Made by a program: the position numbers and the translations under genes. A DNA stretch of 64,000 nt from an uncultured Alphaproteobacteria bacterium (GTDB lineage Bacteria; Pseudomonadota; Alphaproteobacteria; CAAHEQ01; UBA3637): contig CALXXX010000006.1 in the NCBI GenBank assembly GCA_944392795.1, positions 18,485 through 82,484 of the forward strand. The letters are read 5' to 3'. The notes beneath the pieces were generated by a model. That model was not told the DNA's origin. It was given only the letters and a program-made list of their open reading frames with translations, and ran no database searches. Positions 9,224 to 45,009 of the stretch are shown here, one piece after another; position 1 is the stretch's first letter; each line of letters begins with the position of its first letter.

Positions 9224-10060
9224 CTATGTATTTTGAAATTGTAATAAAAGATCGTCAGGAATTGAAAGATTTCCTTTCCCTATTCCTAATTGTACGTCTG
9301 GATGTGGAGCACCATGAAAATCAGAGCCTCCAGAAATTAAAAGATGAAGTGTATGAGCTATTTCTAAATATTGTTTTGTTTGTTCTATCGTATGATCAGA
9401 ATGATAGACCTCAATTCCCATTAATCCTTTTGATTGTAAATCTTTTATGAGCTCAAATAAATCATTTCCTTTGTAATTTATGTGACAAGGATGGGCTAAA
9501 ATTGGAAAAGCTCCATTTTCTCGAATAAAGGTAATAGTTTCTTCGACAGAAGGATCATTTTTTTTGACATAGATAGGACATCCATCTCCCATATATTTGT
9601 CAAAAGCTTCACGAAAAGAAGAGATAAATCCTTTTTTTAATAAAGCTTCAGCAAAATGAGGTTTGCCAATTAAACGGCGTTGTTGACCTTTCTCATCTAG
9701 AGCAACATCTTCCCAAGAAAGAGGAATTCCTATTTGATTAAATAATTCAAGCCTTTTATGGTTGGCTTCATTACGAATGGCTAATAATTCTTTTTCTCGT
9801 TGCTGAAAGGGGATTAAATTTGGAATAAATAAAGCTAGAATTTCAATATTAGCTGGATGGTTAACTCCGAGTTCAACTCCGGAGATAGCTTGTAAATTGG
9901 GATAAAATTGAGCTGCTCTTAAAAAATGTGGAATACCCGATACAACATCATGGTCTGTTAATGCAATTGCTTTTAAGTTTATTTCATGAGCTTTTTGAAT
10001 CAGCTGTTCCGGAGAAAAGGAACCATCAGACGCTGTTGAATGCGTATGTAAATCAATCAT
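9224..10060 (-). CDS. PHP-domain phosphoesterase (TrpH/YciV-like)
   Basis: N-terminal MIDLHTHSTASDGS ... ALTDHD. Confidence 0.8.
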   Translation of the reverse strand: MIDLHTHSTASDGSFSPEQLIQKAHEINLKAIALTDHDVVSGIPHFLRAAQFYPNLQAISGVELGVNHPANIEILALFIPNLIPFQQREKELLAIRNEANHKRLELFNQIGIPLSWEDVALDEKGQQRRLIGKPHFAEALLKKGFISSFREAFDKYMGDGCPIYVKKNDPSVEETITFIRENGAFPILAHPCHINYKGNDLFELIKDLQSKGLMGIEVYHSDHTIEQTKQYLEIAHTLHLLISGGSDFHGAPHPDVQLGIGKGNLSIPDDLLLQFQNT

Positions 10061-10887
10061 GAAGCTTCCTTTTGACTTAACTCTTCCAGCTTCAGATCAA
10101 GAAATGCTTGAGCGGTCCGCTGTAGATTCATTAAAAGAAGAGGATCATTTACATCTTTGCCTGCTTGGAAAAACACACGATCTAATAAGTTTCTTTTTTG
10201 CAAAAGTTGAAAAGAAACTAACCAATGTATCTCAAAAATCCAAGAAAGAGAACCGATCAAGAAATCTTCAAAACCTTTTGCAAAACGATAATCGGCTATT
10301 TCGTTATTTTTAAAATTTTGTAAAATCTCTTTAGAAATTTCTTTGGTCGGAGGATACTTGACTAAATTGATGTGGTTAACCATGCTCGGGTTATCAGCAT
10401 AAAGTTGCCAATTTGCAATTTTGTCAGCATCTTGTATTACTTCAAAAATTTGTCGACAATCTGTTTGTTGCTCAGCTGAGAGACGGCGAAATAATATATC
10501 TGTCTCCAGGTCTTGTGTCCTATGCCCATGGTGTTGGATAGCTAGTAGCATTGCCTCATCCGTTAATCCTTCTTCCCTTAATATATCCGCAGAATATTTA
10601 CCATGATCATGTTTCGAGGCAGGATTTTGAGCTAACAACGGAATTTCTCGAAAACGTCCAATATCATGCATTAAGGCGCCAAATAAAAGCCGTTCGGCCT
10701 GTTCATTTGAAAAAGGAACTTTACGCATAGATAAAAGCTCTTGTGCTACGGCTAGAACATCCATTGTATGTTTTACTTTTTCCTGAACAAAAGCTTCACA
10801 CCATGTATAATATTTAATTTGATTAGATGCTTCTTTTATCTTTTTATTTAAAAGGTCCAGAGCACTGGTTAAGTTTTCTTCAATCAT
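10057..10887 (-). CDS. HD-domain phosphohydrolase
   Basis: H..HDIGR motif (ALMHDIGRF). Its stop overlaps the PHP gene start (ATGA), so the two are likely an operon. Confidence 0.7.
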   Translation of the reverse strand: MIEENLTSALDLLNKKIKEASNQIKYYTWCEAFVQEKVKHTMDVLAVAQELLSMRKVPFSNEQAERLLFGALMHDIGRFREIPLLAQNPASKHDHGKYSADILREEGLTDEAMLLAIQHHGHRTQDLETDILFRRLSAEQQTDCRQIFEVIQDADKIANWQLYADNPSMVNHINLVKYPPTKEISKEILQNFKNNEIADYRFAKGFEDFLIGSLSWIFEIHWLVSFQLLQKRNLLDRVFFQAGKDVNDPLLLMNLQRTAQAFLDLKLEELSQKEAS

Positions 10888-15550: not shown

Positions 15551-16432
15551 ATGCAGCATTTTTCACTTCATACACATACGATTGGTTTTGATGGGCAAAA
15601 TACGGTCGAGGAAATGGTTAAGCAAGCCAAAAAATTACGTTGGTCAAGAATTGGGATTGCCAATCATTTTATTGTTCATCCTGACATAAAAAAGGCAACT
15701 TTTTATGCCTATGCCTGTAAAGGAAATTACCAAAATATTTATTCTGAAAACTTTGAAGAGGCTCTATTTAAATTTTTTCCTTTATTTCAAGAAATAAAGA
15801 GAATTGAACAAATCACTCAGTTTCCTATTTATAAAGGAATGGAGGTCGATTTTTTCGATACAACTCAGTGGAAGGGTGATTTTTATCGTATTATCAATCT
15901 TTTGAAACCAGACTATTTAATTGGTTCTGTGCATTTTGTCGATTATAAAGGTCATTTGTTAAATACACATGATATGAAGAAAGCATCTTTTATGGAACAA
16001 AAAGAGATTTTGAAAATATATTGGAAAAATGTGCGTTCGGCTATTAAATTTAAAGCCTTTGATTTTATGGCGCATTTAGATTTGCCGGCAAAAGTTGGAT
16101 TAGGGTATGGGAAAGAGTGGGAGAAAGAAGAAGAGGAAACAATAGCTCTGTTGGCTGCATGTGGAGGTAAAGCTGAAGTAAATACAAGTGCTTTGAGACA
16201 AAAAGATGAAGCTTATCCATCTAATCGAATTTTGAAATTACTTGCTAAGTATGAGATTCCTGTTGTGCTTTCAGATGATGCTCACAGCGTTTCGCAAATG
16301 GGGCAGTATTTTGAAAAAGGAACGGAATTGATGAAAAATGCAGGGATTAAACGTTCTATTTATCCAATTATGATTGCAGACCATATAAGGCAGCGAATTT
16401 ATATGGATTGGCATTTTATGCGAGTGAGATGA
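15551..16432 (+). CDS. PHP-domain phosphoesterase (histidinol-phosphatase-like family)
   Basis: N-terminal HTHT motif (MQHFSLHTHTIGFDG), later conserved His/Asp residues, and a C-terminal LSDDAHS. Confidence 0.6.
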   Translation: MQHFSLHTHTIGFDGQNTVEEMVKQAKKLRWSRIGIANHFIVHPDIKKATFYAYACKGNYQNIYSENFEEALFKFFPLFQEIKRIEQITQFPIYKGMEVDFFDTTQWKGDFYRIINLLKPDYLIGSVHFVDYKGHLLNTHDMKKASFMEQKEILKIYWKNVRSAIKFKAFDFMAHLDLPAKVGLGYGKEWEKEEEETIALLAACGGKAEVNTSALRQKDEAYPSNRILKLLAKYEIPVVLSDDAHSVSQMGQYFEKGTELMKNAGIKRSIYPIMIADHIRQRIYMDWHFMRVR

Positions 16433-18502: not shown

Positions 18503-19966
18503 ATGATATTTGAAAACATACGAGATTATTTCCTTTTTTTTGAAGAAAAAATTTTACCTGAATTAAAGCAACATTCATATCAATCACCTAAAGGATACCA
18601 TGGTTTAGAAACACATACTTATCAGGTTGTCTTTCGCGCCATAGATTATGCTTTTCAACTTCATCAAGATCCTATGCCTGTTTTATTTGCCGCCGCTTTA
18701 CATGATTGTGCTCGTATAGATGACAGGTATGATGTGGAGCATGGTTTAAAGGCATTACCTTTAGCACGTCAAATTTTAAATCGTTTTCGAGAAGTTATAT
18801 CTCCTTCAAAGGATGAGGCTATTTTACGAGCTATTGCTCAGCATACCACGGGGCATCAACCAGTAGATTATATCAGCGCTTGTTTATGGGATGCAGACAG
18901 AACTCGTTTATCTTGGGAAAGGGGATTTGATGCTTCTTATTTTTCAACAGAGTATGCTAAAAAAAGAGCTTCTTCAGATCCAAGAATTTATTTAAATTAT
19001 CAAGCTCAAACTTTGAATAAAGCTTTCGAAGATCGTGAGGGCGTTCTTGTAGATTTTAAATCATTGATTAGAGACATTCATATTCAATCAGAAAAAACAT
19101 TTTGTTTACGTCATCAATATATGTTATGGGGGCGTCGGCAGCCTTTTAAAAATTTAGGTATCGTTGAAGATTTAAAACGTTTTTTGACAAAAGGGGTGCT
19201 TGTCGGTATAGACGGATTTTATTCATATCTTTGTTCCAGTCGGATAGAGGAAGATATGAATCCTGAAAAAATATATTTATTTTTTAATCTTCCTGAGGCA
19301 AAATTACAAGCACCTTTTTTTCGTTTAGATCATACAGCATGTGAAATAGATTTGGACAAAAAAGGGATAGAGAGTTTCTACTTAATGAATCAATATTTAC
19401 TCACAGATTTTTTACCTTGTTTGCAAACCGGTCTTGTTCGAGAAGGGTGGCAGGAAATAGAACCGATTTCTCTTAATTTTGATAAATGGGAAAATATGAT
19501 TTATCGTATTCCAGAGGAAGCTAAGATTACAGCTATTCGTCTCAGAAATAAGAAACCGTATTATTATCAATATTTACTTGAAAACAAAAAGAAAGAACAA
19601 TATATCTTTGAGCCGGAACAGCATTTGATGGATGGTTTTTCTCATAAGGTGGCAGTTGCTATAGAAGACGCTTTATTTGGACGGGCTGAGAACTTTTCAA
19701 AAGCTTATACGGATTTTATTCAAAATAAAATAATGCCTCTTGTAGAAAAAGAAAATTGGACTTGTGCTCTTGTTTTTCGAGGTCAGCAATTTCCTGCTCC
19801 GGAACGTATTATATATAAGGGATATGTTTTATTTGATAACAGCATTGATAGTTGTTTAGAAGTGGCAAATAAAATAACGCCGGCTTTTTTAAAACAAATA
19901 GAAGAAAAAAATATAATACATCATCACCAACTTCAGTTAGATTTAAAGGAGCATTCAAGAAGTTAA
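18503..19966 (+). CDS. HD-domain protein with a ~330-aa C-terminal region of unknown function
   Basis: N-terminal H...HD...H...D pattern (HGLETHTYQV, AALHDCARIDD, HTTGH, WDADR). Confidence 0.5.
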   Translation: MIFENIRDYFLFFEEKILPELKQHSYQSPKGYHGLETHTYQVVFRAIDYAFQLHQDPMPVLFAAALHDCARIDDRYDVEHGLKALPLARQILNRFREVISPSKDEAILRAIAQHTTGHQPVDYISACLWDADRTRLSWERGFDASYFSTEYAKKRASSDPRIYLNYQAQTLNKAFEDREGVLVDFKSLIRDIHIQSEKTFCLRHQYMLWGRRQPFKNLGIVEDLKRFLTKGVLVGIDGFYSYLCSSRIEEDMNPEKIYLFFNLPEAKLQAPFFRLDHTACEIDLDKKGIESFYLMNQYLLTDFLPCLQTGLVREGWQEIEPISLNFDKWENMIYRIPEEAKITAIRLRNKKPYYYQYLLENKKKEQYIFEPEQHLMDGFSHKVAVAIEDALFGRAENFSKAYTDFIQNKIMPLVEKENWTCALVFRGQQFPAPERIIYKGYVLFDNSIDSCLEVANKITPAFLKQIEEKNIIHHHQLQLDLKEHSRS

Positions 19967-19967
19967 A

Positions 19968-20333
19968 ATGTATGAAGATATTTTAAGAAAATTATCTCAA
20001 TCTTCATTTCGTAATCGTTTTCACTTGAGTGATCAGGATAAACAGTATGTGCGTCAAAAAGGAATAGAGACAATTCGAAAACATGCACAAGATTTTATTC
20101 AAAAACGAATTGCTCCTGAAGTTATTTTAAATGATGGGAAACAAACACCAATGCGTGGTCATCCTGTTTTCGTTGCGCAGCATGCAACGGCAACTTGTTG
20201 TCGAGGCTGTATTGAAAAATGGCATTATTTTTCAAAAGGATATCTTTTGACTGAAAAAGAGCAAGAATATCTCATCGGTTTAATTATGCTTTGGATAGAC
20301 CGACAAATGCTAGAAGAAAAAAAACAATCATAA
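19968..20333 (+). CDS. Small Cys-containing hypothetical protein (DUF4186-like)
   Basis: 121 aa with CCRGC...WHYFSKGY. The ATG overlaps the upstream stop. Confidence 0.5.
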   Translation: MYEDILRKLSQSSFRNRFHLSDQDKQYVRQKGIETIRKHAQDFIQKRIAPEVILNDGKQTPMRGHPVFVAQHATATCCRGCIEKWHYFSKGYLLTEKEQEYLIGLIMLWIDRQMLEEKKQS

Positions 20334-20341
20334 ATATCTTT

Positions 20342-22156
20342 TTAGTTTTTTTCCTTATGTAAAAAAGAATGCCATAAGTTTATTTCTTTTTTTATGTTTT
20401 CGTTTGCTGTTTCTTCAAACATATTTTTGAAAAAAGGTGTTTTATAAAGAGGAGACATGTTTTGAAGTTTTTTTAAGACTTCTAATCTTTTTTTTGAAAA
20501 AATTTTAATGGGCACATTTTTAAATTCTTCCCGAATTTTTTGGACATATAAAAAATAGCCGTTATGTGTTCCTAATATACTCAAATTTATATCGAAAATA
20601 ATTTTTTGTAATAACGTTGTTAGTTCATTTTTTTCTTGAACGTTTGTCGAATAAATTAAATCTGATAAAAGTTTTAGACTATCTTTTCCATATTCTCCTT
20701 TTTTTAAAAAATCCACAGCTTTTTTTGCTGAGATATCTTTATTGTTTAAGTCGTAATCATGGTAAAAAATGGCTGTTTTTAGCAAAGCGCGTTCTTTCGC
20801 TTTTAATGAACTAGATAAGCTTTCAAAGATTTGAAGGAAGTTAAACTGACGAGCCACATGCGATAAAGTATGATAAGACCTGTTTTCTTGATAGGCTAAA
20901 ACGAGTTCTTGAAAGCTGTCTGAAGCAGTCGAAGATGGAATTTTAAAAAAAGAACATAAATTAAAAAATTCTTTTTGAAGGTATTTTTCCATTAAAGCTT
21001 CATGAACTGTCGGGAAGATATATTCTTCTGCAACAATATATTCTCCACTTTCACAAAGCATTTTTGTATCGCTGGAAGAGATATGAGCTAAAATTTGTTG
21101 ATTGTCCGGCGTTAAAGTAAAAGCGCCGAGTTCTTTATTTCTTACGCTAAGGAGCTTTTGGTTAATGGTTGTTAATCTTGCTTCGTATTCGTGATCGTTA
21201 GTATTGCGTTCGCCTCGTAGAAGTGTGTTCGCGCCTACTTTTAAAGCGGCATCAATAGTCATTCCTTCATAAGCGACAACTTCTAATACTTCAGGTTTTT
21301 GTTTTAATTTGAGATAAGCCAATTTTTCTGTTTCAGAGAAGATAATATTATTAAGCTCTCTCATTTCATAGGCTTTTTTAAAATCGTCAATAGTTTGATG
21401 AATTAATTTAACTCTTTCCGGAGGAGAAAAAAGTGTTTTTTTATCAGGATTAACGCCGATACCGACATAAACTTTATCACAATGATGGATTGCTGCACAA
21501 ATTAGATTCCAATGCCCTTTTGTCATAGGATCAAAAGAACCTGCGTAAAATCCAATTAAAGGTTTATGATAATTGCTTTGAATAGAAGTCAGAATGGCAT
21601 CCAGTTGATTATGTAGTCCTTCAAGTGTGTCTGATAAAATGAGATAAGTTGATTTTTTCTTTTTTTCTTCCACTGACATTTGTTTCTGAAGAAGAGTTTC
21701 ATATTTTTCTTCTGTCATTCCAGGTCGAGCTAATGCGCGTCTTTTTTGTTCTTTTGAATCAATATACAGACAAACAGTGCTGTTGCATAAACGATCTAAT
21801 TCTGTTTCAAAAAGTAAAGGCGCATCAATAACAACAAGAGGTATATTTTTCTTGCGGAAAGAGTCTAAAGCTGCTTGTATTTCATGCATCACATAAGGCA
21901 TTGTCATGTCTTCTATTTTTTTTAAAGCTGTCGGATGGCTGAAAACGAGATGTGATAGCTTTTGTCTGTCTAATTGGTTATTTGTAAAAGCTTGTGGAAA
22001 AGCTTCAATCAGCTCTGTTTTTAACAAAGGATGATTTGCTTGCAATTCATGGACAAGAGCATCGCAATCAATAATTGGGCATCCTTTTTCTTTTAGATAA
22101 GTACTGGCAGTTGATTTTCCTGAAGCAATTGAACCTGTTAGACCAATGATGTGCAT
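20342..22156 (-). CDS. Tri-domain fusion: dephospho-CoA kinase (CoaE) + phosphopantetheine adenylyltransferase (CoaD-like) + C-terminal HD-like domain
   Basis: Residues 1-195 carry the CoaE P-loop GLTGSIASGKST. Residues ~198-370 carry CoaD motifs GSFDPMTKGHWNL, ERNTNDHEYE and ISSSDTK. Residues ~375-604 carry HTLSH...IFYHDYD. Confidence 0.7.
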   Translation of the reverse strand: MHIIGLTGSIASGKSTASTYLKEKGCPIIDCDALVHELQANHPLLKTELIEAFPQAFTNNQLDRQKLSHLVFSHPTALKKIEDMTMPYVMHEIQAALDSFRKKNIPLVVIDAPLLFETELDRLCNSTVCLYIDSKEQKRRALARPGMTEEKYETLLQKQMSVEEKKKKSTYLILSDTLEGLHNQLDAILTSIQSNYHKPLIGFYAGSFDPMTKGHWNLICAAIHHCDKVYVGIGVNPDKKTLFSPPERVKLIHQTIDDFKKAYEMRELNNIIFSETEKLAYLKLKQKPEVLEVVAYEGMTIDAALKVGANTLLRGERNTNDHEYEARLTTINQKLLSVRNKELGAFTLTPDNQQILAHISSSDTKMLCESGEYIVAEEYIFPTVHEALMEKYLQKEFFNLCSFFKIPSSTASDSFQELVLAYQENRSYHTLSHVARQFNFLQIFESLSSSLKAKERALLKTAIFYHDYDLNNKDISAKKAVDFLKKGEYGKDSLKLLSDLIYSTNVQEKNELTTLLQKIIFDINLSILGTHNGYFLYVQKIREEFKNVPIKIFSKKRLEVLKKLQNMSPLYKTPFFKNMFEETANENIKKEINLWHSFLHKEKN

Positions 22157-22168
22157 CTTTTTCTCCTT

Positions 22169-22681
22169 TTAAAAATTTTTATTTTGAATTTGGCACATAA
22201 TCTTTTCTGCCGCTTCTTTCGCTGAGATATTTGAAACATCAATGTGCTCTGTTTTCATATCTTGATATAATTTCTGATAGGCTAAGCTGCGTTCTATAAT
22301 ATCTTTGGTACGATGTCCAGCTTGAATTTCTTTTTCAAGTCTTGAACAAAGAGCTTTATCAGAGCAGGTGAGGGTAAAACGATATTCTTGAAAAGATAAA
22401 TCTTTTAGAGAACTGATGATTGTTTCAAAGATAATTTCATTCGGAATAACCCAAGAAAATATGACATATTCAAAAGAATCATTTTTTAAAAAAGAGCGCA
22501 ATAAAAAACAAATGTTTTCCATAACCATAGTTTTATTTTTTTCTGTCACTTGAAAAGGAGACATATCCCAACACCAGTCTCCGTCCAGATAAACAGAAGG
22601 GGTTATTTTTTGTTTGAGTAATTTGGATGTTGTTGTCTTTCCGACACCCATTGTGCCATTAATAAAAATCAGTTTTTTCAT
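22169..22681 (-). CDS. P-loop NTPase/kinase, TmrB/chloramphenicol-phosphotransferase-like (AAA_33-type)
   Basis: Walker A INGTMGVGKTTTSK. The protein is 170 aa. Confidence 0.55.
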   Translation of the reverse strand: MKKLIFINGTMGVGKTTTSKLLKQKITPSVYLDGDWCWDMSPFQVTEKNKTMVMENICFLLRSFLKNDSFEYVIFSWVIPNEIIFETIISSLKDLSFQEYRFTLTCSDKALCSRLEKEIQAGHRTKDIIERSLAYQKLYQDMKTEHIDVSNISAKEAAEKIMCQIQNKNF

Positions 22682-23211
22682 CTTAATATTTTACTAATAT
22701 GATATTCGTCGTGCCATTCGCCATTTATAAAAGCGACTTCGTGAAAAAGGCCATCAATTTCAAAACCTTGCTTTAAGTAAAGATTGATGCCACGTTTGTT
22801 TGTGGAGCGGACCAGTCCTTCAATACGATGCAAGTTTTGTTTACGAGCCCATTCTTCTATCTTTTGCATTAAATAAGTTCCAAGCCCTAGGCCATAATAG
22901 GCTTTAAGGATCGAAATTCCAAAAGAGGCGTTTCTGCCTGTCCATGGGTGTCCAGGTTTGTTGATTGCAATGGATATTTGACCAACAATTTCACCATTTT
23001 CTGCAAAAGCGCTTAAAAATAAATTTGTCGGTAATTCATAGATTCTAATAGAATTTTCTTTATCCCGATAAGGTTGTCCAGGATATTGATTAGTAAAAAC
23101 GGTTTCTTTTGATAAACGATCTAAAAAGAGCATAACAGCCTCATAGTCTTTTGCTTGAGTTTCTCTAATAATTAGTTTTTCACCGTTTTTAAGCGTAAAA
23201 AATTCATTCAT
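22678..23211 (-). CDS. GNAT-family N-acetyltransferase (RimJ/RimL-like)
   Basis: GNAT core EIVGQISI...RNASFGISILKAYYGLGLGTYLM. Its stop overlaps the kinase start (ATGA). Confidence 0.65.
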   Translation of the reverse strand: MNEFFTLKNGEKLIIRETQAKDYEAVMLFLDRLSKETVFTNQYPGQPYRDKENSIRIYELPTNLFLSAFAENGEIVGQISIAINKPGHPWTGRNASFGISILKAYYGLGLGTYLMQKIEEWARKQNLHRIEGLVRSTNKRGINLYLKQGFEIDGLFHEVAFINGEWHDEYHISKILR

Positions 23212-23222
23212 TTTATTCCTCC

Positions 23223-24122
23223 TTAAAAGATATGAAATAAATCAGCATATTGAAATGAAAGACCTATCATAAAATTGCTACCAGTTACAGATGCTCCGCG
23301 CGCTTTTCCGAGCCGATATGAAACATAGGGAGCTAGTGCTAATGTTTGAGTTATGCTGACATCCATTCTGGCTTTAACATTTAAATCATATTTTAAATCT
23401 GTCGCTTCATATTGGCTAAAGCTAAAATATGGCCTAAAATAACCTTCTGCAGCGAACTTAACGCCTTCTCGAATAGGATAATTTGCTCTAAAGCCGATTT
23501 CCGCAGCAGATTTGTAATTCGTCGGGCTATACGTAAAATCAGATTCACCGACCATGGCAATATATAGCTCTTCCAGATATTGACCATTAAAGAGTTTGAG
23601 ACCTCCCTTTAAACGAGCGACTTTATTACGAGGTGCATCTTGATTTGCAGTAAACTCAGTTTGAAAACCAATGCTGGCAAATGGACCTAAATCCGCTGTT
23701 TGGACTTTCCAAAGCTTTTGAGCTAAATCTGTCGTTACTAAAATTTCATCCGCATCTTCATTAGATGTTTTTTCTCCATTAGCTTTTTTAATTTTTGTTT
23801 TCCCATACTCCATATATAGGCCATTATTCCAAGTAAAATGATTTTGTTGATATTCTAGAACAAAATCAAAAACACCATTGATTTGCATTTCACTGTCAGC
23901 GTTGAATTCGCTAATGGGAGAATCTTGATATTCCTCTGCATGACTAACACTGGTATTAGAAAACTCCAAGGCAATTCGGCGAAAATTAGCTTTTAAAGTC
24001 GAAGGGGTATCTAATTTTTCGACAGGCTTTATATCAAGAAAAGAGTTTTCCTGAGCGGAAAGGGGAAGAGTAATTAAAAAAAAGCTCAGTATTATTCCTA
24101 TTTTTTTTCCAATTATCATCAC
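23223..24122 (-). CDS. Outer-membrane beta-barrel protein with signal peptide
   Basis: Signal peptide MMIIGKKIGIILSFFLITLPLSAQ, alternating amphipathic beta-strands, and a C-terminal ...FQYADLFHIF ending in Phe. Confidence 0.6.
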   Translation of the reverse strand: MMIIGKKIGIILSFFLITLPLSAQENSFLDIKPVEKLDTPSTLKANFRRIALEFSNTSVSHAEEYQDSPISEFNADSEMQINGVFDFVLEYQQNHFTWNNGLYMEYGKTKIKKANGEKTSNEDADEILVTTDLAQKLWKVQTADLGPFASIGFQTEFTANQDAPRNKVARLKGGLKLFNGQYLEELYIAMVGESDFTYSPTNYKSAAEIGFRANYPIREGVKFAAEGYFRPYFSFSQYEATDLKYDLNVKARMDVSITQTLALAPYVSYRLGKARGASVTGSNFMIGLSFQYADLFHIF

Positions 24123-24260
24123 TTAAAATCCTTTTTTATAAAAGTTCTTCTAGCGTATCTGATAATATTTTTTTTGACAAGAAATTTAATCAAAAATACT
24201 ACGATTTATTGATTTTTGTTTATTTTTTTGTTAAAATGCTTTTTACATATGGAGATTAAA

Positions 24261-24914
24261 ATGACACCAGAAAAAGCAATGCTAGAAGAAGTACAGGAAG
24301 CCGAGGTTATGCAGGAATTGTTAAATAAATTAGCTGAAATACCTCGTCGTGGTTGGGTTTTAAGAGGAGTTCAAAATCCGGAGAATGTGGCAGAACATTC
24401 ATTAGGTGTTGCAATGCAAGCCATGATGTATTGTTCGCGTGACCTTAATGCAAAGCGAGTACATGAGTTAGCTCTTATTCATGATTTGCCAGAAATTTAC
24501 GCAGGTGATGTAACGCCGCAAGATTGTGTCTCAAAAGCAGAAAAAGAAGCCGCAGAAAGACAAGCGATGGAGCGTATTATTCACGAAACAGGATGTACAT
24601 ATTTAATGCCTTTGTTTGAGGAGTTCCTAGAGCAAAAAACGCCAGAGGCTCATTTTGTAAATGATATGGATCGTTATCAGTGCGTTTTACAAGCAGAATA
24701 CTATGATAAAAATAACTTAGCTTCTCAGGAACTTGTTCCAGAATTTTATGCTTATGCAAACACTAAAATGAAAACGTCTATTGGAAAAAGTTTAATGGAA
24801 ATGTTCTATCGCCGGTGGGAACCTCAAGCTCAACAACGTCGTATTCTTCGTTCAAAGTGGCATGGAGGCGTTGTCTGTATCGCAGGTCAGCTAATAGAAT
24901 TAGCAAGAGATTAA
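24261..24914 (+). CDS. HD-domain hydrolase (YfbR-like 5'-deoxynucleotidase family)
   Basis: RRGW...ENVAEHS...HDLPE motif pattern. The start MTPEK is preceded by the RBS ggag. Confidence 0.6.
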   Translation: MTPEKAMLEEVQEAEVMQELLNKLAEIPRRGWVLRGVQNPENVAEHSLGVAMQAMMYCSRDLNAKRVHELALIHDLPEIYAGDVTPQDCVSKAEKEAAERQAMERIIHETGCTYLMPLFEEFLEQKTPEAHFVNDMDRYQCVLQAEYYDKNNLASQELVPEFYAYANTKMKTSIGKSLMEMFYRRWEPQAQQRRILRSKWHGGVVCIAGQLIELARD

Positions 24915-25952: not shown

Positions 25953-27152
25953 ATGACCCAAGAAGGAACTCAAGTAACGACACCTCAAATACAATATGTT
26001 GGAGATGGTGTTCAGACAAATTTTAGCTTTTCCTTTCAAATCTTTGAAGAAAGTAATTTGAAAGTTTATTTAGGGAGTGTTTTACAACAAAAAGGCTATA
26101 CAGTTCAGAAGGAAGAAGAAAGTTTAGGGGGAACAGTTATTTTTAATGAAGCTCCGGTATCTGGTGAGCTTATTACTTTAGTACGAGAGCTTGATTTAGA
26201 GCGGACAACAGATTTCGCTTCCGGAGGCGTTTTACGAGCTGCTGATTTAAACTATGAGTTTGATTATCAAATGGGATGTTTGCAACAATTATCTTCTGGA
26301 TTGAGCCGTTCTTTATTGTTGCCTGTTTTTGAAAATAAAGAGGGGATTGATTTTAGCTTACCAGCACCTGAGGCTAATAAAGCTCTTGTCTGGAATGCAC
26401 AAGGTAATTCGTTGATGAATAGTCAAGTTGAAATAGGGAATTTAGATGCTTCTCTTACTCAGGCAGTATCAACAGTTTCTGATTTGGCTGAAGAGGTCAG
26501 TCAAATGAAAGAAAATGCTCAAGAAGCTGCAACGACAGCTACGACGCAAGCAGCAATAGCGACACAGAAAGCACAAGAAGTTCAGCAGAACTTCTCTAAT
26601 TTATATCCTTTTCATGTCAATTCGAACAGTTGTGATTTAAATAGCTTAACAGCCTCAGGAATTTATGAAGTGATAGCTTCGGCGCATTATCCTTTAGATA
26701 CAGGATATTATCATGTTGAGGTATATGTTCCGTCACAAGGTAATATAGTTCAGACAGCTTATGCAGTTGGTGCAAGTATGGGAGGGTATCCAGCTACTTA
26801 TCGTCGTCGTTTTATAAACAGTGCTTGGGAAGATTGGCTTCAGATTTCTAATGAAGGAATGGGGAGTCCTTCAGGGCAAGTGATTAATATTTCTGTAGAA
26901 AGTGCCGGAGAACAACATGTTTTAAATTCTCCTGCAAATGGATTTTATTGCTTGATAGGTTTATCAACTGCAGCTTCTCAGGAAGTTTATTTGAGTAATT
27001 CAGTAAATGGTATGGCTGTTTTAAGCTCTGCAACAGCTCCATCTAAGAATCTCGCAATTTTCTTGCCGGTCTCAGCTAATCAAAATGTGCGCTATTTATA
27101 TACAACAGCAGGTACAGTGACATTGAAATTTATTTATGCGAAAGGAGTTTAA
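25953..27152 (+). CDS. Phage T7 gp17-like tail-fibre protein (N-terminal tail-attachment domain plus a divergent C-terminal domain)
   Basis: N-terminus QYVGDGVQTNFSFSFQIFEESNLKVYL...TDFASGGVLRAADLNYEFDYQ parallels T7 gp17 YQLDGSNRDFNIPFEY...VDFTDGSILRAYDLNVAQIQ. Confidence 0.65.
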   Translation: MTQEGTQVTTPQIQYVGDGVQTNFSFSFQIFEESNLKVYLGSVLQQKGYTVQKEEESLGGTVIFNEAPVSGELITLVRELDLERTTDFASGGVLRAADLNYEFDYQMGCLQQLSSGLSRSLLLPVFENKEGIDFSLPAPEANKALVWNAQGNSLMNSQVEIGNLDASLTQAVSTVSDLAEEVSQMKENAQEAATTATTQAAIATQKAQEVQQNFSNLYPFHVNSNSCDLNSLTASGIYEVIASAHYPLDTGYYHVEVYVPSQGNIVQTAYAVGASMGGYPATYRRRFINSAWEDWLQISNEGMGSPSGQVINISVESAGEQHVLNSPANGFYCLIGLSTAASQEVYLSNSVNGMAVLSSATAPSKNLAIFLPVSANQNVRYLYTTAGTVTLKFIYAKGV

Positions 27153-27153
27153 G

Positions 27154-27441
27154 ATGTATTATATTATTGATGAAAAAGGACAAATAAAAATGTCTGCAGA
27201 TTTTCGTTTTTCAGAAAACTGTATAGAAACAGAAAAAAATATTGTGACAGGTTTTGATGGAAAACTTTATTTTGAAGGAGAAGAACCTGTAAAACCAGAG
27301 CCAACTTATATTGAGCTTCGGCAGGCGGCGTATCCTCCTATTTCTGATCAGTTAGATATGTTATATTGGGATGCAGTAAACGGGACGACGATATGGAAAG
27401 ATACAATTTCAGAGATTAAAACACAATATCCTAAAAGTTGA
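27154..27441 (+). CDS. Small hypothetical protein (95 aa), possible tail-fibre partner or chaperone
   Basis: The start MYYIIDEKG is preceded by the RBS aaaggag. It is followed by a terminator at 27446-27476. Confidence 0.45.
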   Translation: MYYIIDEKGQIKMSADFRFSENCIETEKNIVTGFDGKLYFEGEEPVKPEPTYIELRQAAYPPISDQLDMLYWDAVNGTTIWKDTISEIKTQYPKS

Positions 27442-43890: not shown

Positions 43891-45009
43891 ATGTTCTTTT
43901 TTATAACAACAATTTTAACGATTTTAGTCGCAGCTTACATTATTAAATCTTTGGTGTTGCCTCTTTCTGCGGCTTTATGGATTAAAATGATTTTAGCCGG
44001 ATTGATTTTAATTGGTTCTCAAAAAATGGGAATTTATTGGCTTTTGGGAAACATTTTCCCTGTGTTGCAAATGAGAGGTGTTATGATTTTCTTTGGAATT
44101 GCTCAAGCCTGGATTTTTATTATGTTCTTGGGTGTTATAGTGTTAAATCTGTTGAGCTTATTTAAGGTTTTTATTCCAGGGGCTTTGCCGATTATGTTAA
44201 TTGGCACTTTTTTTATTGCTGTTTTTTCCGTGTGGCAAGCTTTGCGTGTCCCTAGTGTTAAGGAGGTAAAAGTTGCTTTGAAAGAACTTCCTTCATCCTG
44301 GCAACCACTTCGGATAGTTCAATTGTCTGATTTGCATATCGGTTCTGGATTTAACGGAAAATGGTTAAAACAGGTCGTTACAAAAGTAAATGATTTATCT
44401 CCTGATTTAATTGTGATTACGGGAGATTTGATAGATGGTTCACCAGCTCAGCTGATGCCTGATTTAGAGCCGTTAAAAGACTTAAAAGCTGCTCAAGGTG
44501 TGTTTATGGTTTATGGTAATCATGAGTATTATTACGGGCCGGAACGATGGATGCCTGCGTTTAAGGAGTTAGGTTTAGATTTAGTTATGAATGAAGCGCG
44601 GCTTTTAACTCATCATGAAACAGCTTTTGCTGTGGGAGGCTTACCGATGCCTGGTGCTAATCGATTTAGTTTGCCCGGACCGCAATTATCTAAAACTTTT
44701 GAAAATATAGGTGGTAATGTTCCCCGTTTTTTGATGGCTCATTATCCAAGCCAAGTTTCGGACGCTGCAAAGCATCAGGTTCTTTTACAGTTTTCTGGCC
44801 ATACACATGGCGGACAGTTGTTTTGGCCTTTTAACCTTTTAGCATCTTCTGCAAATAATGGGTTCTTAAAAGGTTTTTATCAAGTCGGGCCAACACGACT
44901 ATATGTTAGTTCCGGGACCGGTTTGTGGGGAGGTTTCCCCGTCAGGTTGGGAACGAGTCCGGAAATTACACTTTTTATTGTCGAAAAAGCGGAAAAGCTC
45001 GACGCATAA
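43891..45009 (+). CDS. Membrane-anchored calcineurin-like metallophosphoesterase
   Basis: About four N-terminal TM helices, then DLHIG...GDLID...GNHE...GHTHGG. Confidence 0.75.
   Translation: MFFFITTILTILVAAYIIKSLVLPLSAALWIKMILAGLILIGSQKMGIYWLLGNIFPVLQMRGVMIFFGIAQAWIFIMFLGVIVLNLLSLFKVFIPGALPIMLIGTFFIAVFSVWQALRVPSVKEVKVALKELPSSWQPLRIVQLSDLHIGSGFNGKWLKQVVTKVNDLSPDLIVITGDLIDGSPAQLMPDLEPLKDLKAAQGVFMVYGNHEYYYGPERWMPAFKELGLDLVMNEARLLTHHETAFAVGGLPMPGANRFSLPGPQLSKTFENIGGNVPRFLMAHYPSQVSDAAKHQVLLQFSGHTHGGQLFWPFNLLASSANNGFLKGFYQVGPTRLYVSSGTGLWGGFPVRLGTSPEITLFIVEKAEKLDA

What the first reader, a model, noticed from the sequence alone, without database searches (positions are those of the whole stretch)
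20342..22156. Unusual CoaE - CoaD(PPAT) - HD three-domain fusion protein
A single 604-aa ORF carries a full dephospho-CoA kinase (P-loop GLTGSIASGKST), a full PPAT-type nucleotidyltransferase (GSFDPMTKGHWNL, ISSSDTK) and a ~230-aa C-terminal region with an HD-like pattern (HTLSH...IFYHDYD). In bacteria coaD and coaE are normally separate and unlinked. Here the order is kinase then transferase, the reverse of eukaryotic COASY (PPAT then DPCK). The extra phosphohydrolase-like domain suggests either regulated turnover of CoA or 4'-phosphopantetheine, or an enzyme that makes and trims a different adenylylated, phosphorylated product. It sits in an accessory nucleotide-enzyme island rather than with housekeeping genes.
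Basis: seen in the sequence. Interest (0 to 1): 0.62.

Follow-up and report, generated by a model that had tools for sequence, protein, structure and literature searches.

The report
CoaE–CoaD enzyme fused to HD domain
One real, conserved gene in a gut alphaproteobacterium joins the last two coenzyme A-making enzymes to a phosphodiesterase-like HD domain from a large uncharacterised family, and that family has fused to these two enzymes repeatedly, which gives it its first testable functional lead.

Summary
Window 20342-22156 (-) is one 604-aa ORF with three domains:
- CoaE, aa 1-195.
- Bacterial-type PPAT/CoaD, aa 196-391, with a ~29-aa insertion.
- An all-helical C-terminal domain, aa 392-604.

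It is not a frameshift artefact. Homologues at 29-99% identity keep the three-domain form, and all three domains are under purifying selection.

The wider result is that this HD domain is fused to PPAT and/or CoaE in at least five domain orders and several lineages. That links the family to the end of CoA metabolism.

- The gene is not in a mobile or accessory island. It is chromosomal, and homologues sit among core genes.
- In this protein three metal-site residues are substituted (E→K473, H→V506, canonical Asp→N524), so hydrolytic activity here is doubtful.

The substrate is unknown. I found no paper describing the fusion.

The parts
20342..22156 (-). Whole 604-aa ORF (stop codon at 20342-20344): CoaE-PPAT-HD three-domain protein
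   Evidence: ORF; domains; conserved full-length homologues
21572..22156 (-). Dephospho-CoA kinase (CoaE) domain, aa 1-195. Has the P-loop GLTGSIASGKST, the DCD motif (canonical DAD) and PLLFE
   Evidence: Pfam PF01121 E 8e-40; TIGR00152 137 bits against cutoff 65.6; solved CoaE 1uf9 E 1e-27
20984..21571 (-). Bacterial-type phosphopantetheine adenylyltransferase (CoaD/PPAT) domain, aa 196-391. Motifs GSFDPMTKGH, NPDKK, RGERNxxDHEYE, INQ and ISSS are all present
   Evidence: TIGR01510 99.0 bits against cutoff 103.3; end-to-end alignment to 3nd5 PPAT; invariant columns in A1
21305..21391 (-). Insertion of ~29 aa (about aa 256-284) within PPAT relative to solved PPATs. Shared by the ~400-aa gut-alphaproteobacterial PPAT-HD proteins. 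Absent from P0018, P0019 and the ~370-aa PPAT-HD proteins
   Evidence: gap between PPAT positions 58 and 60 of 3nd5; split PPAT hits in the insert-less forms
20345..20983 (-). C-terminal all-helical HD domain with a phosphodiesterase-like fold, aa 392-604. It is the type labelled by sources 'predicted metal-dependent HD superfamily phosphohydrolase'. H429, H433, H466 and D467 are present; K473, V506 and N524 replace the family-conserved E, H and D
22163..22168 (-). AAGGAG ribosome-binding site, 6 nt upstream of the ATG and just after the stop codon of the upstream gene
   Evidence: sequence read directly
22169..24122 (-). Likely co-transcribed upstream genes: DUF3078 protein (23223-24122), GNAT acetyltransferase (22678-23211) and a small AAA_18 kinase-like protein (22169-22681). 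The same order occurs in the sister species that carries P0002
   Evidence: 12-bp and 4-bp spacings, Pfam; the same four-gene order in L090/L091; no convincing internal terminator

Best explanation
This is the organism's own terminal CoA-synthesis enzyme pair on one polypeptide.

Shown:
- The PPAT domain has every catalytic motif needed to convert 4'-phosphopantetheine + ATP to dephospho-CoA.
- The CoaE domain has every catalytic motif needed to phosphorylate dephospho-CoA to CoA.
- The gene descends from a two-domain PPAT-HD gene that is common in gut Alphaproteobacteria.
- The C-terminal domain is a phosphodiesterase-fold member of a huge, uncharacterised HD family. That family has become fused to PPAT and/or CoaE repeatedly.

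Inferred:
- In the window's lineage coaE was added at the N-terminus, probably after becoming adjacent to coaD, as in L015.
- In the family as a whole, the HD domain is a metal-dependent phosphoesterase whose substrate or product is shared with the PPAT step.
- Most likely it releases 4'-phosphopantetheine from a phosphodiester- or pyrophosphate-linked donor (a holo-carrier protein, as AcpH does, or a CoA-derived or cyclic phosphopantetheine species). PPAT and CoaE would then rebuild CoA. I put this at about 0.35.
- Next most likely it hydrolyses CoA or dephospho-CoA as a counter-activity, at about 0.25.
- In this particular protein and its closest relatives the metal site is degraded (K473, V506, N524), while most other family-conserved residues and purifying selection remain. 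Here the domain probably binds its ligand with little or no hydrolysis, acting as a regulatory or structural module on the PPAT oligomer.
For: Domain identity.

Fusion is real and selected.

Descent:
- The PPAT motif [GA]FY[AS]GSFDP is shared with alphaproteobacterial CoaD of Nitratireductor, Bosea and Hyphomicrobium.
- Two-domain PPAT-HD proteins occur in 12 gut Alphaproteobacteria MAG loci with no coaE within 8 kb.
- L015 has separate coaE and coaD genes 4 bp apart.

HD domain:
- Profile match to the HD proteins YedJ (E 4.5e-5) and BH2835.
- 15,536 clusters at 50% identity match the domain profile.

Recurrent fusion:
- Among 191 sampled HD-domain proteins there are 64 PPAT-HD, 13 CoaE+PPAT+HD and 2 scored CoaE+HD; one of the two, P0045, also has a PPAT domain by Pfam.
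- Pfam-verified orders are CoaE-PPAT-HD, PPAT-HD-CoaE, PPAT-CoaE-HD and CoaE-HD, plus HD-X-PPAT-CoaE inside a giant ORF.
- Fused members are scattered among stand-alone ones in a rough NJ tree.

Precedent: an HD-family enzyme, AcpH, releases 4'-phosphopantetheine from holo-carrier proteins (PMC8557913).

Metal-site decay with retained constraint.
Against: - No biochemical data exist for any member.
- Stand-alone members have acidic predicted pI (median 5.7), which does not suggest docking of the very acidic ACP.
- They are frequent in CPR/Patescibacteria. To my knowledge those organisms mostly lack fatty-acid synthesis and ACP.
- Stand-alone genes have no conserved neighbours that point to CoA.
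- Whether this gene is the only coaD/coaE in the genome could not be checked. Only the 64-kb window was searched, and it has no second copy.
- The PPAT score is 4 bits below NCBI's equivalog cutoff.
- Sampling of architectures is biased towards fused forms, because the query profile was built from them. With a stand-alone-based profile only 1 of the 120 best hits was fused.
Confidence: 0.5

Rival explanations
1. Counter-activity or homeostasis enzyme. The HD domain hydrolyses CoA or dephospho-CoA, either the 3'-phosphate (reversing CoaE) or the pyrophosphate (reversing PPAT hydrolytically). The polypeptide would then be a synthesis/turnover switch like SpoT, GlnD or PFK-2/FBPase-2. This is essentially the reader's 'regulated turnover' idea.
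For: - A direct CoaE-HD fusion without PPAT exists (P0090).
- Class I phosphodiesterases, the closest fold, cleave the P-O3' bond of an adenine nucleotide. This is from my own knowledge.
- Several conserved Arg residues (R426, R542, R557) fit a phosphate-rich nucleotide ligand.
- Acidic pI and a CPR distribution fit a small-molecule substrate.
Against: - A covalently coupled futile cycle needs reciprocal regulation, and nothing is known that would provide it.
- Known CoA-degrading enzymes are Nudix hydrolases (my own knowledge).
- PPAT, not CoaE, is by far the commonest fusion partner.
- In the window protein the metal site is degraded.
Confidence: 0.25
2. By-product or side-product hydrolase, analogous to NadD-YqeK. 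In that pair a HIGH-type adenylyltransferase is linked or fused to an HD-domain Ap4A hydrolase. Here the HD domain would clear a dinucleoside polyphosphate, PPi or another adenylyl side product, not a CoA intermediate.
For: - PPAT and NadD belong to the same nucleotidyltransferase superfamily. The PPAT domain gives weak NadD and NMNAT hits, including NF005519, a 361-position NadD model.
- The stand-alone family is widespread with no pathway context, as expected for a general nucleotide housekeeping hydrolase.
Against: - The C-terminal domain gives no match to the YqeK model TIGR00488.
- I know of no report that PPAT forms Ap4A.
- Repeated additional fusion to CoaE is better explained by a CoA-specific role.
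Confidence: 0.12
3. The nucleotidyltransferase and kinase domains are paralogues that make a different adenylylated or phosphorylated product, and canonical coaD and coaE exist elsewhere in the genome.
For: - The PPAT score (99.0) is just under the TIGR01510 cutoff (103.3).
- There is a lineage-specific 29-aa insertion.
- The local neighbours are GNATs, a small kinase and other HD proteins.
Against: - All PPAT substrate and catalytic motifs are canonical and invariant across the family.
- The insert-less PPAT-HD protein P0064 passes the cutoff at 104.3 bits.
- CoaE scores twice its equivalog cutoff.
- The PPAT signature matches alphaproteobacterial CoaD.
- Homologues sit among core genes.
- PPAT is the most constrained domain (dN/dS 0.03).
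Confidence: 0.08
4. Assembly or frameshift artefact that merged adjacent genes.
For: None found.
Against: - The identical architecture appears in independent assemblies at 99%, 98% and 80% identity, and at 29-46% identity in P0003-P0006 and P0019.
- The PPAT C-terminal helix runs straight into the HD domain with no linker.
- All domains are under purifying selection.
Confidence: 0.01

Closest known systems
Eukaryotic CoA synthase (COASY), bifunctional PPAT/DPCK
   Same: Both terminal CoA activities sit on one polypeptide. The window's CoaE domain matches the DPCK domain of mouse COASY (2f6r, E 2.6e-14).
   Different: - The domain order is reversed (kinase first).
- The PPAT domain is the bacterial CoaD type (TIGR01510 and solved bacterial PPATs).
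- There is an additional C-terminal HD domain.
- The fusion arose independently in bacteria.
Bacterial CoaE/CoaD fusions and CoaE with other extra domains (for example M. tuberculosis CoaE with a C-terminal UPF0157/GrpB domain, PMC2765170)
   Same: - Fused PF01121+PF01467 proteins of 340-400 aa occur in both orders in Clostridia, Tenericutes and other MAGs.
- CoaE carrying an extra C-terminal domain of unclear function has precedent (P0046-P0048 with PF04229).
   Different: Those proteins lack the HD domain. None of the papers retrieved describes a PPAT-HD or CoaE-PPAT-HD architecture.
'Predicted metal-dependent HD superfamily phosphohydrolase' family, often mis-annotated 'N-methyl-D-aspartate receptor NMDAR2C subunit' (I recall this as COG4339; that identifier was not verified here)
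   Same: - The C-terminal domain is a clear sequence member. It scores E 1e-58 against a profile of 191 members.
- It keeps 26 of 32 positions that are at least 85% conserved in stand-alone members.
   Different: - Most members are stand-alone ~200-220 aa proteins.
- The window copy is fused and has K473, V506 and N524 at metal-site positions.
- No function is known for the family. Searches for three identifiers recalled from memory (COG4339, IPR009218, PIRSF035170), none verified here, found no functional study.
Class I cyclic-nucleotide phosphodiesterase catalytic domain
   Same: - The YHNxxH-type and HD motifs are shared.
   Different: - Sequence identity is only 13-18%, and there is no Pfam PDEase_I hit.
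- The HDxxH second His and the ~120-residue C-terminal substrate-pocket subdomain are missing.
- The Foldseek E-values (3.5e-3 or weaker) are marginal.
AcpH (acyl carrier protein phosphodiesterase, HD family)
   Same: It is an HD-superfamily metal-dependent phosphodiesterase whose product, 4'-phosphopantetheine, is the PPAT substrate (PMC8557913). This makes it a functional analogy for the favoured hypothesis.
   Different: There is no detectable sequence relationship (no PF04336 hit) and no AcpH among the top structural matches. The resemblance is by analogy only.
NadD-YqeK (adenylyltransferase plus HD-domain Ap4A hydrolase, operonic or fused)
   Same: A HIGH-type adenylyltransferase of a cofactor pathway is coupled to an HD-domain hydrolase. 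This architectural parallel is from my own knowledge.
   Different: It is a different HD subfamily: TIGR00488 does not match the C-terminal domain. The transferase and the pathway are also different.

Membership tests
Dephospho-CoA kinase (CoaE, TIGR00152 / PF01121) | Score above the curated equivalog cutoff over the full domain | tested here: met
   TIGR00152 137.4 bits against cutoff 65.55, profile positions 1-174 of 188; PF01121 136.8 bits against 27
Dephospho-CoA kinase (CoaE, TIGR00152 / PF01121) | P-loop GxxGxGKS/T and the catalytic Asp motif after strand 2 | tested here: met
   GLTGSIASGKST at aa 5-16 and IDCDALVH at aa 29-36, read and conserved in A1
Dephospho-CoA kinase (CoaE, TIGR00152 / PF01121) | Enzymatic phosphorylation of dephospho-CoA | not testable with these tools
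   Needs an enzyme assay or complementation
Bacterial PPAT (CoaD, TIGR01510) | Score above the curated equivalog cutoff | tested here: not met
   99.0 bits against cutoff 103.3. The shortfall coincides with a ~29-aa insertion. The insert-less PPAT-HD homologue P0064 scores 104.3
Bacterial PPAT (CoaD, TIGR01510) | Catalytic and substrate motifs: GxFDPxTxGH, K of (S/N)PxKK, RGxR, D/E of DxEYE, N of MN, ISSS | tested here: met
   G206, F208, P210, T212, G214, H215, K239, R314, R317, E325, N332, S360 and S361 are invariant, and D321 is at least 90% conserved, across 19 homologues. They align with the same motifs of 3nd5
Bacterial PPAT (CoaD, TIGR01510) | Being the genome's sole or housekeeping coaD | not testable with these tools
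   The 64-kb window has no second copy.
HD superfamily (PF01966-type metal-dependent phosphohydrolases) | Conserved H...HD...D metal ligands | tested here: not met
   H433 and H466-D467 are present, but the last Asp is N524. That Asp is the second D of DxDL, aligned to the DAD motif of YedJ and BH2835. It is D in 104/104 stand-alone and 75/79 fused members
HD superfamily (PF01966-type metal-dependent phosphohydrolases) | All-helical HD fold | tested here: met
   [not shown]
'Predicted metal-dependent HD superfamily phosphohydrolase' family (stand-alone ~200 aa) | Significant full-length profile match and the family motifs RxYHxLxH, AIFxHD, NExxS, LIxATxH, DxDLxILG, IRxEY, GR, ARxN | tested here: met
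   E 1e-58 over profile positions 2-215. 26 of 32 conserved positions are retained; the E, H and D of three motifs are substituted. Source names
Class I cyclic-nucleotide phosphodiesterase (PF00233) | Sequence signature HD[LIVMFY]xHx[AG]xxNx[LIVMFY] and a PDEase_I profile match | tested here: not met
   No PF00233 hit for the protein or for 18 homologues, even at E<=10. The sequence reads HDYDLNNK. The similarity is in fold only
AcpH-type phosphopantetheinyl hydrolase (PF04336) | Profile match to ACP_PD | tested here: not met
   No hit in the 18 members scanned at E<=10
YqeK-type Ap4A hydrolase (TIGR00488) | Profile match | tested here: not met
   No TIGR00488 hit for the 604-aa protein. The neighbouring 487-aa HD protein has only a weak one (E 3e-4)
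Anti-phage defence system component (PADLOC) | Match to any defence-system model in the gene or its neighbours | tested here: not met
   No hit for the 604-aa protein. The only hit is a sub-threshold VakA match (E 7e-4) for the AAA_18 neighbour

The most novel reading that the evidence does not exclude
The stand-alone 'NMDAR2C-like' HD family (more than 15,000 clusters at 50% identity) is a missing, widespread enzyme of CoA or 4'-phosphopantetheine salvage or repair. Candidates are a third class of phosphopantetheinyl hydrolase, a phosphodiesterase that opens cyclic or diester-linked phosphopantetheine, or a phosphatase that corrects mis-phosphorylated CoA (iso-CoA). PPAT and CoaE would then convert its product back to CoA. 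On this reading the fused proteins are complete 'recycle-to-CoA' machines, and the window's N524/K473/V506 variant is a derived ligand-sensing pseudoenzyme that regulates PPAT.
Probability: 0.2. Interest if true: 0.8.

Novelty: new variant of a known kind. Interest (0 to 1): 0.55.

Why it matters
CoA synthesis is essential and is a drug target, and its last two bacterial steps are normally described as separate enzymes.

This gene and its relatives show two things:
1. A recurrent PPAT-HD architecture in gut Alphaproteobacteria and elsewhere, which none of the papers I could search describes.
2. Repeated, differently ordered fusions that tie a very large uncharacterised HD/phosphodiesterase-like family to the PPAT and CoaE steps.

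That is a concrete 'Rosetta-stone' lead for assigning a function to the family, for example phosphopantetheine recycling or CoA turnover, and for understanding CoA salvage in gut and reduced-genome bacteria.

If the lead fails, the gene is still simply the organism's fused CoaE/CoaD with an extra domain. That would be useful for annotation but not remarkable.

Tried and rejected
- The search for related loci with the C-terminal alignment A2 failed because no stretch was conserved enough. The single genome-contig scan was then spent on A1, so the rest of the MAG could not be searched for separate coaD, coaE, coaBC or acpH.
- The afdb50 fold library was unavailable.
- Context comparison: neighbours of the window gene are not shared with the two-domain loci L002-L013. 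The conserved neighbours of those loci (nrdD/nrdG, flavin reductase, a LysR regulator, a Zeta-toxin-like kinase) say nothing about CoA.
- No stand-alone HD gene lies next to a canonical coaD in 65 other loci.
- Neighbourhoods of stand-alone family members are heterogeneous. This holds on plasmids and in CPR, Planctomycetota and cyanobacterial contigs. One Burkholderia copy follows an adenylate cyclase and a patatin, and one Leptolyngbya copy lies near an NRPS. Both are anecdotal.
- Contexts of P0020 and P0022 are uninformative.
- PADLOC gave nothing, so the defence-island idea was dropped.
- Global charge of the HD domain as a proxy for ACP docking was inconclusive or negative.
- Literature searches found no description of the fusion or of the HD family's function. 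Terms tried: PPAT + HD domain + fusion, COG4339, NMDAR2C subunit, IPR009218/PIRSF035170, and bifunctional PPAT/DPCK in bacteria.
- The promoter and terminator scans gave counts no higher than in shuffled sequence.
Full report
**Observation**

One search lists one ATG-initiated ORF at 20342..22156 on the minus strand. An AAGGAG ribosome-binding site lies 6 nt upstream of the ATG. The gene starts 12 bp after the stop codon of the upstream gene.

Pfam and NCBIfam place the domains as follows:
- A dephospho-CoA kinase at aa 3-176. PF01121 gives E 8e-40. TIGR00152 scores 137 bits against a cutoff of 65.6.
- A PPAT-type nucleotidyltransferase at aa 202-391. TIGR01510 scores 99.0 bits against a cutoff of 103.3.
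- Residues 392-604 match no model.

Solved CoaE and PPAT structures are the only significant PDB sequence matches. The PPAT part aligns end to end with E. faecalis PPAT 3nd5, including GSFDPMTxGH, RGxRNxxDxEYE, xNQ, SSS and the C-terminal helix. The exception is a ~29-residue insertion between PPAT positions 58 and 60.

**Not an artefact**

The same three-domain protein is found in several independent sources:
- at 99% identity in an independent MAG (L001, 'uncultured Alphaproteobacteria bacterium SI.O49.metabat-bins.29');
- at 98% (P0001) and 80% (P0002, several contigs);
- at 29-46% in P0003-P0006 and P0019.

Codon-level comparison with the P0002 gene gives dN/dS of 0.09 (CoaE), 0.03 (PPAT) and 0.13 (C-terminal domain). 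Against L001 the values are 0.05, 0.02 and 0.03. All three parts are therefore maintained by selection.

**Organism and setting**

The window is a chromosomal piece of a low-GC (about 35%) gut-type alphaproteobacterium. Annotated genes in the window include:
- a kdsD-like gene, lptC/A, argS, a class II aaRS, tatC, rpsD and tRNA-Pro;
- msrA/msrB and a polysaccharide gene cluster;
- yidC, dnaX and mnmA.

Immediately upstream on the same strand lie a DUF3078 protein, a GNAT and a small AAA_18 kinase-like protein. Their spacings of 12 bp and -4 bp suggest an operon. This four-gene order is conserved in the sister species that carries P0002. The downstream genes (DUF4186, a 487-aa HD-like protein, a GNAT, an LD-carboxypeptidase) are not conserved there.

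Other three-domain homologues lie among core genes. P0006 is followed by relA/spoT-lepB-rnc-era. P0005 follows rpsF-rpsR-rplI, a DUF3078 gene and a CDF transporter. Nothing matches defence-system models. The 'accessory island' reading is therefore not supported.

The 64-kb window holds no second CoaE, PPAT or HD copy. The rest of the genome could not be examined.

**Origin of the architecture**

About a dozen gut Alphaproteobacteria MAGs (deer, human and other guts) carry ~400-aa two-domain proteins. These consist of PPAT, with the same insertion, plus the same C-terminal domain. They have no coaE within 8 kb.

The PPAT N-terminal signature [GA]FY[AS]GSFDP is the one found in ordinary alphaproteobacterial CoaD of Nitratireductor, Bosea, Hyphomicrobium and others. 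This argues for vertical descent of the housekeeping coaD.

One Alphaproteobacteria MAG (L015) has separate coaE and coaD genes 4 bp apart, in the same order as in the window and without the extra domain. A Tenericutes MAG has a fused CoaE-PPAT. Several Clostridia MAGs encode PPAT followed by CoaE, and fused proteins exist in both orders.

Linkage or fusion of the two genes is thus uncommon but not unique in bacteria. The window's protein is best read as a PPAT-HD gene that later captured coaE at its 5' end.

**The C-terminal domain**

An alignment-based AlphaFold2 model is confident (pLDDT 94.8, pTM 0.91) and all-helical. The structural matches are:
- Foldseek also ranks PDE4D first, but with marginal E-values.

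At the sequence level, profiles of the domain match only the HD proteins YedJ (E 4.5e-5) and BH2835 (E 5e-4). No Pfam, NCBIfam, AcpH or YqeK model matches.

An exhaustive profile search finds 15,536 clusters at 50% identity with E<=1e-3, and 10,901 with E<=1e-10. Most are stand-alone proteins of 200-220 aa. Their sources label them 'predicted metal-dependent HD superfamily phosphohydrolase' or, misleadingly, 'N-methyl-D-aspartate receptor NMDAR2C subunit'. They come from Patescibacteria, Planctomycetota, Verrucomicrobiota, Chloroflexota, cyanobacteria and Pseudomonas megaplasmids. I found no paper on their function.

**Recurrent fusion to the CoA module**

Among 191 sampled members of the HD family the architectures are:

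| Architecture | Count |
|---|---|
| Stand-alone | 104 |
| PPAT-HD | 64 |
| CoaE, PPAT and HD together | 13 |
| CoaE-HD by the phmmer domain scan (P0045 also has PPAT by Pfam) | 2 |
| Other long forms | 8 |

Pfam confirms four domain orders:
- CoaE-PPAT-HD: the window, P0019 and P0071;
- PPAT-HD-CoaE: P0020;
- PPAT-CoaE-HD: P0022 from a Spirochaetales MAG, P0040 and P0045;
- CoaE-HD: P0090.

A fifth order, HD-X-PPAT-CoaE, is embedded in a giant ORF of more than 3,800 codons in L034.

In a rough neighbour-joining tree most PPAT-HD proteins form one large clade. Several fused proteins are scattered among stand-alone ones, which suggests more than one fusion event.

Two caveats apply. The tree is crude. 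The sample is also biased towards fused forms, because with a profile built from stand-alone members only 1 of the 120 best hits is fused.

Even so, five different domain orders involving the same three activities are hard to explain without a functional link between this HD family and the PPAT and CoaE steps. Gene neighbourhoods add nothing. Stand-alone genes have heterogeneous contexts, and none lies beside a canonical coaD in 65 loci.

**State of the HD site in this protein**

Family-wide, the following are nearly invariant: RxYHxxxH, the HD dyad, NExxS, ATxH, DxDL, IRxEY, a GR Arg and an ARxN Asn.

The profile alignment to YedJ and BH2835 equates DxD with their DAD motif. From general knowledge of HD domains, the second Asp of that motif is the canonical fourth metal ligand.

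The window protein keeps H429, H433, H466, D467, S476, T504 and D522, and 26 of the 32 most conserved positions overall. It differs at three metal-site positions:
- K473 replaces the Glu.
- V506 replaces the His of ATxH.
- N524 replaces the second Asp, which is D in 104/104 stand-alone and 75/79 fused members.

P0001 and P0002 share K473 and N524. P0005 has lost more, and P0017/L011 have lost every ligand while keeping the domain. More distant three-domain proteins (P0003, P0004, P0006, P0019) and almost all two-domain proteins have an intact site.

Because the domain is still under purifying selection, the window's copy is most simply read as functionally retained. Its hydrolytic activity is probably weakened, altered or lost. 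It may be a ligand-binding, regulatory or structural module.

The full-length model is well ordered (pLDDT 89, pTM 0.74). The PPAT C-terminal helix runs directly into the HD domain, which fits a fixed PPAT-HD arrangement.

**Mechanism**

Shown by sequence: the two N-terminal domains have what is needed for 4'-phosphopantetheine → dephospho-CoA → CoA.

Inferred: the ancestral HD domain is a metal-dependent phosphoesterase acting on something shared with PPAT. My ranking is:
1. About 0.35. It releases 4'-phosphopantetheine from a phosphodiester- or pyrophosphate-linked donor, so that the fusion recycles it to CoA. The precedent is AcpH, an unrelated HD-family phosphodiesterase that frees 4'-phosphopantetheine from holo-carrier proteins and whose cellular role is still unclear (PMC8557913).
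2. About 0.25. It hydrolyses CoA or dephospho-CoA as a counter-activity.
3. About 0.12. It clears an adenylyl side product, as YqeK does beside NadD.

Three points count against the ACP version of option 1:
- There is no similarity to AcpH.
- Stand-alone members have an acidic pI.
- They are abundant in Patescibacteria, which to my knowledge mostly lack ACP-dependent lipid synthesis.

None of these options can be settled computationally with the tools at hand.

**Comparison with known systems and novelty**

The protein works like a CoA synthase (COASY). It differs in having the reverse domain order, bacterial-type domains and a third domain. It is not a class I phosphodiesterase, AcpH or YqeK by sequence.

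Fused bacterial CoaE/CoaD proteins, and CoaE with other C-terminal domains, are already in the databases. An example is the M. tuberculosis CoaE with a UPF0157 domain (PMC2765170). The PPAT-HD and CoaE-PPAT-HD architectures are also present in the databases, annotated only as PPAT or CoaE. No paper I could search describes them.

I therefore class the finding as a new variant of a known kind. Its main value is as a lead to the function of a very large orphan HD family.

Noticed in passing
L034:2001-13400 (+): In an 'uncultured bacterium' MAG contig, one reading frame stays open for more than 3,800 codons and runs off the locus end. It contains histidine-kinase-like ATPase segments, then HD - ~200 aa of a degenerate nucleotidyltransferase-like stretch - PPAT - CoaE, then membrane-spanning and HTH/sigma-like regions. 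It is a giant multidomain gene that embeds the whole CoA module.
   Followed up: partly
window 18503-20333 (+): A 487-aa protein has only a weak N-terminal HD match (Pfam E 1.6e-4; faint YqeK-like hit). It is followed 1 bp later by a DUF4186 protein. The pair is convergent with the 604-aa gene, with stop codons 8 nt apart. It is absent from the sister species, where an EptA-like gene sits instead.
   Followed up: partly
window 22169-23211 (-): A small AAA_18 kinase-like protein (weak similarity to the Gar/GrdA gentamicin-resistance ATP-binding family, 34 bits against a cutoff of 170) overlaps a GNAT acetyltransferase by 4 bp. Together they sit directly upstream of the CoaE-PPAT-HD gene. The order is conserved in the sister species. 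The function is unknown.
   Followed up: partly
window 25953-27441 (+): A 399-aa ORF with a weak phage T7 tail-fibre N-terminal domain match (E 5e-5) is followed by an overlapping 101-aa ORF. A T7-tail-like gene is also present at the equivalent place in the sister species (L090/L091). No other phage genes were seen nearby.
   Followed up: no
window 20984-21571 vs L001:8586-9176: Synonymous divergence between the window and the 99%-identical MAG L001 is 0.43 in the PPAT segment. It is only 0.05 in the CoaE segment and 0.12 in the HD segment. This may be a recombination patch.
   Followed up: no
window 9224-10887, 15551-16432, 24216-24914, 43891-45009: The window holds an unusual number of stand-alone phosphoesterase-type genes: two PHP-domain proteins, an HD protein (overlapping one PHP gene by 4 bp), an HD_3/YfbR-like 5'-deoxynucleotidase and a calcineurin-like metallophosphoesterase.
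   Followed up: no
L011:7854-9104 and P0017: A PPAT-HD homologue keeps the C-terminal domain at full length but has lost every HD ligand (KYRGKSE at the seven tracked positions). It is no longer detected by the family profile, which makes it an apparent pseudo-enzyme version of the fusion.
   Followed up: partly
L082:316-5555 (Burkholderia stagnalis plasmid NZ_CP156687.1): A stand-alone member of the HD family lies directly after an adenylate/guanylate cyclase-domain gene and a patatin-like phospholipase. This is an anecdotal hint of a cyclic-nucleotide context for some members.
   Followed up: no
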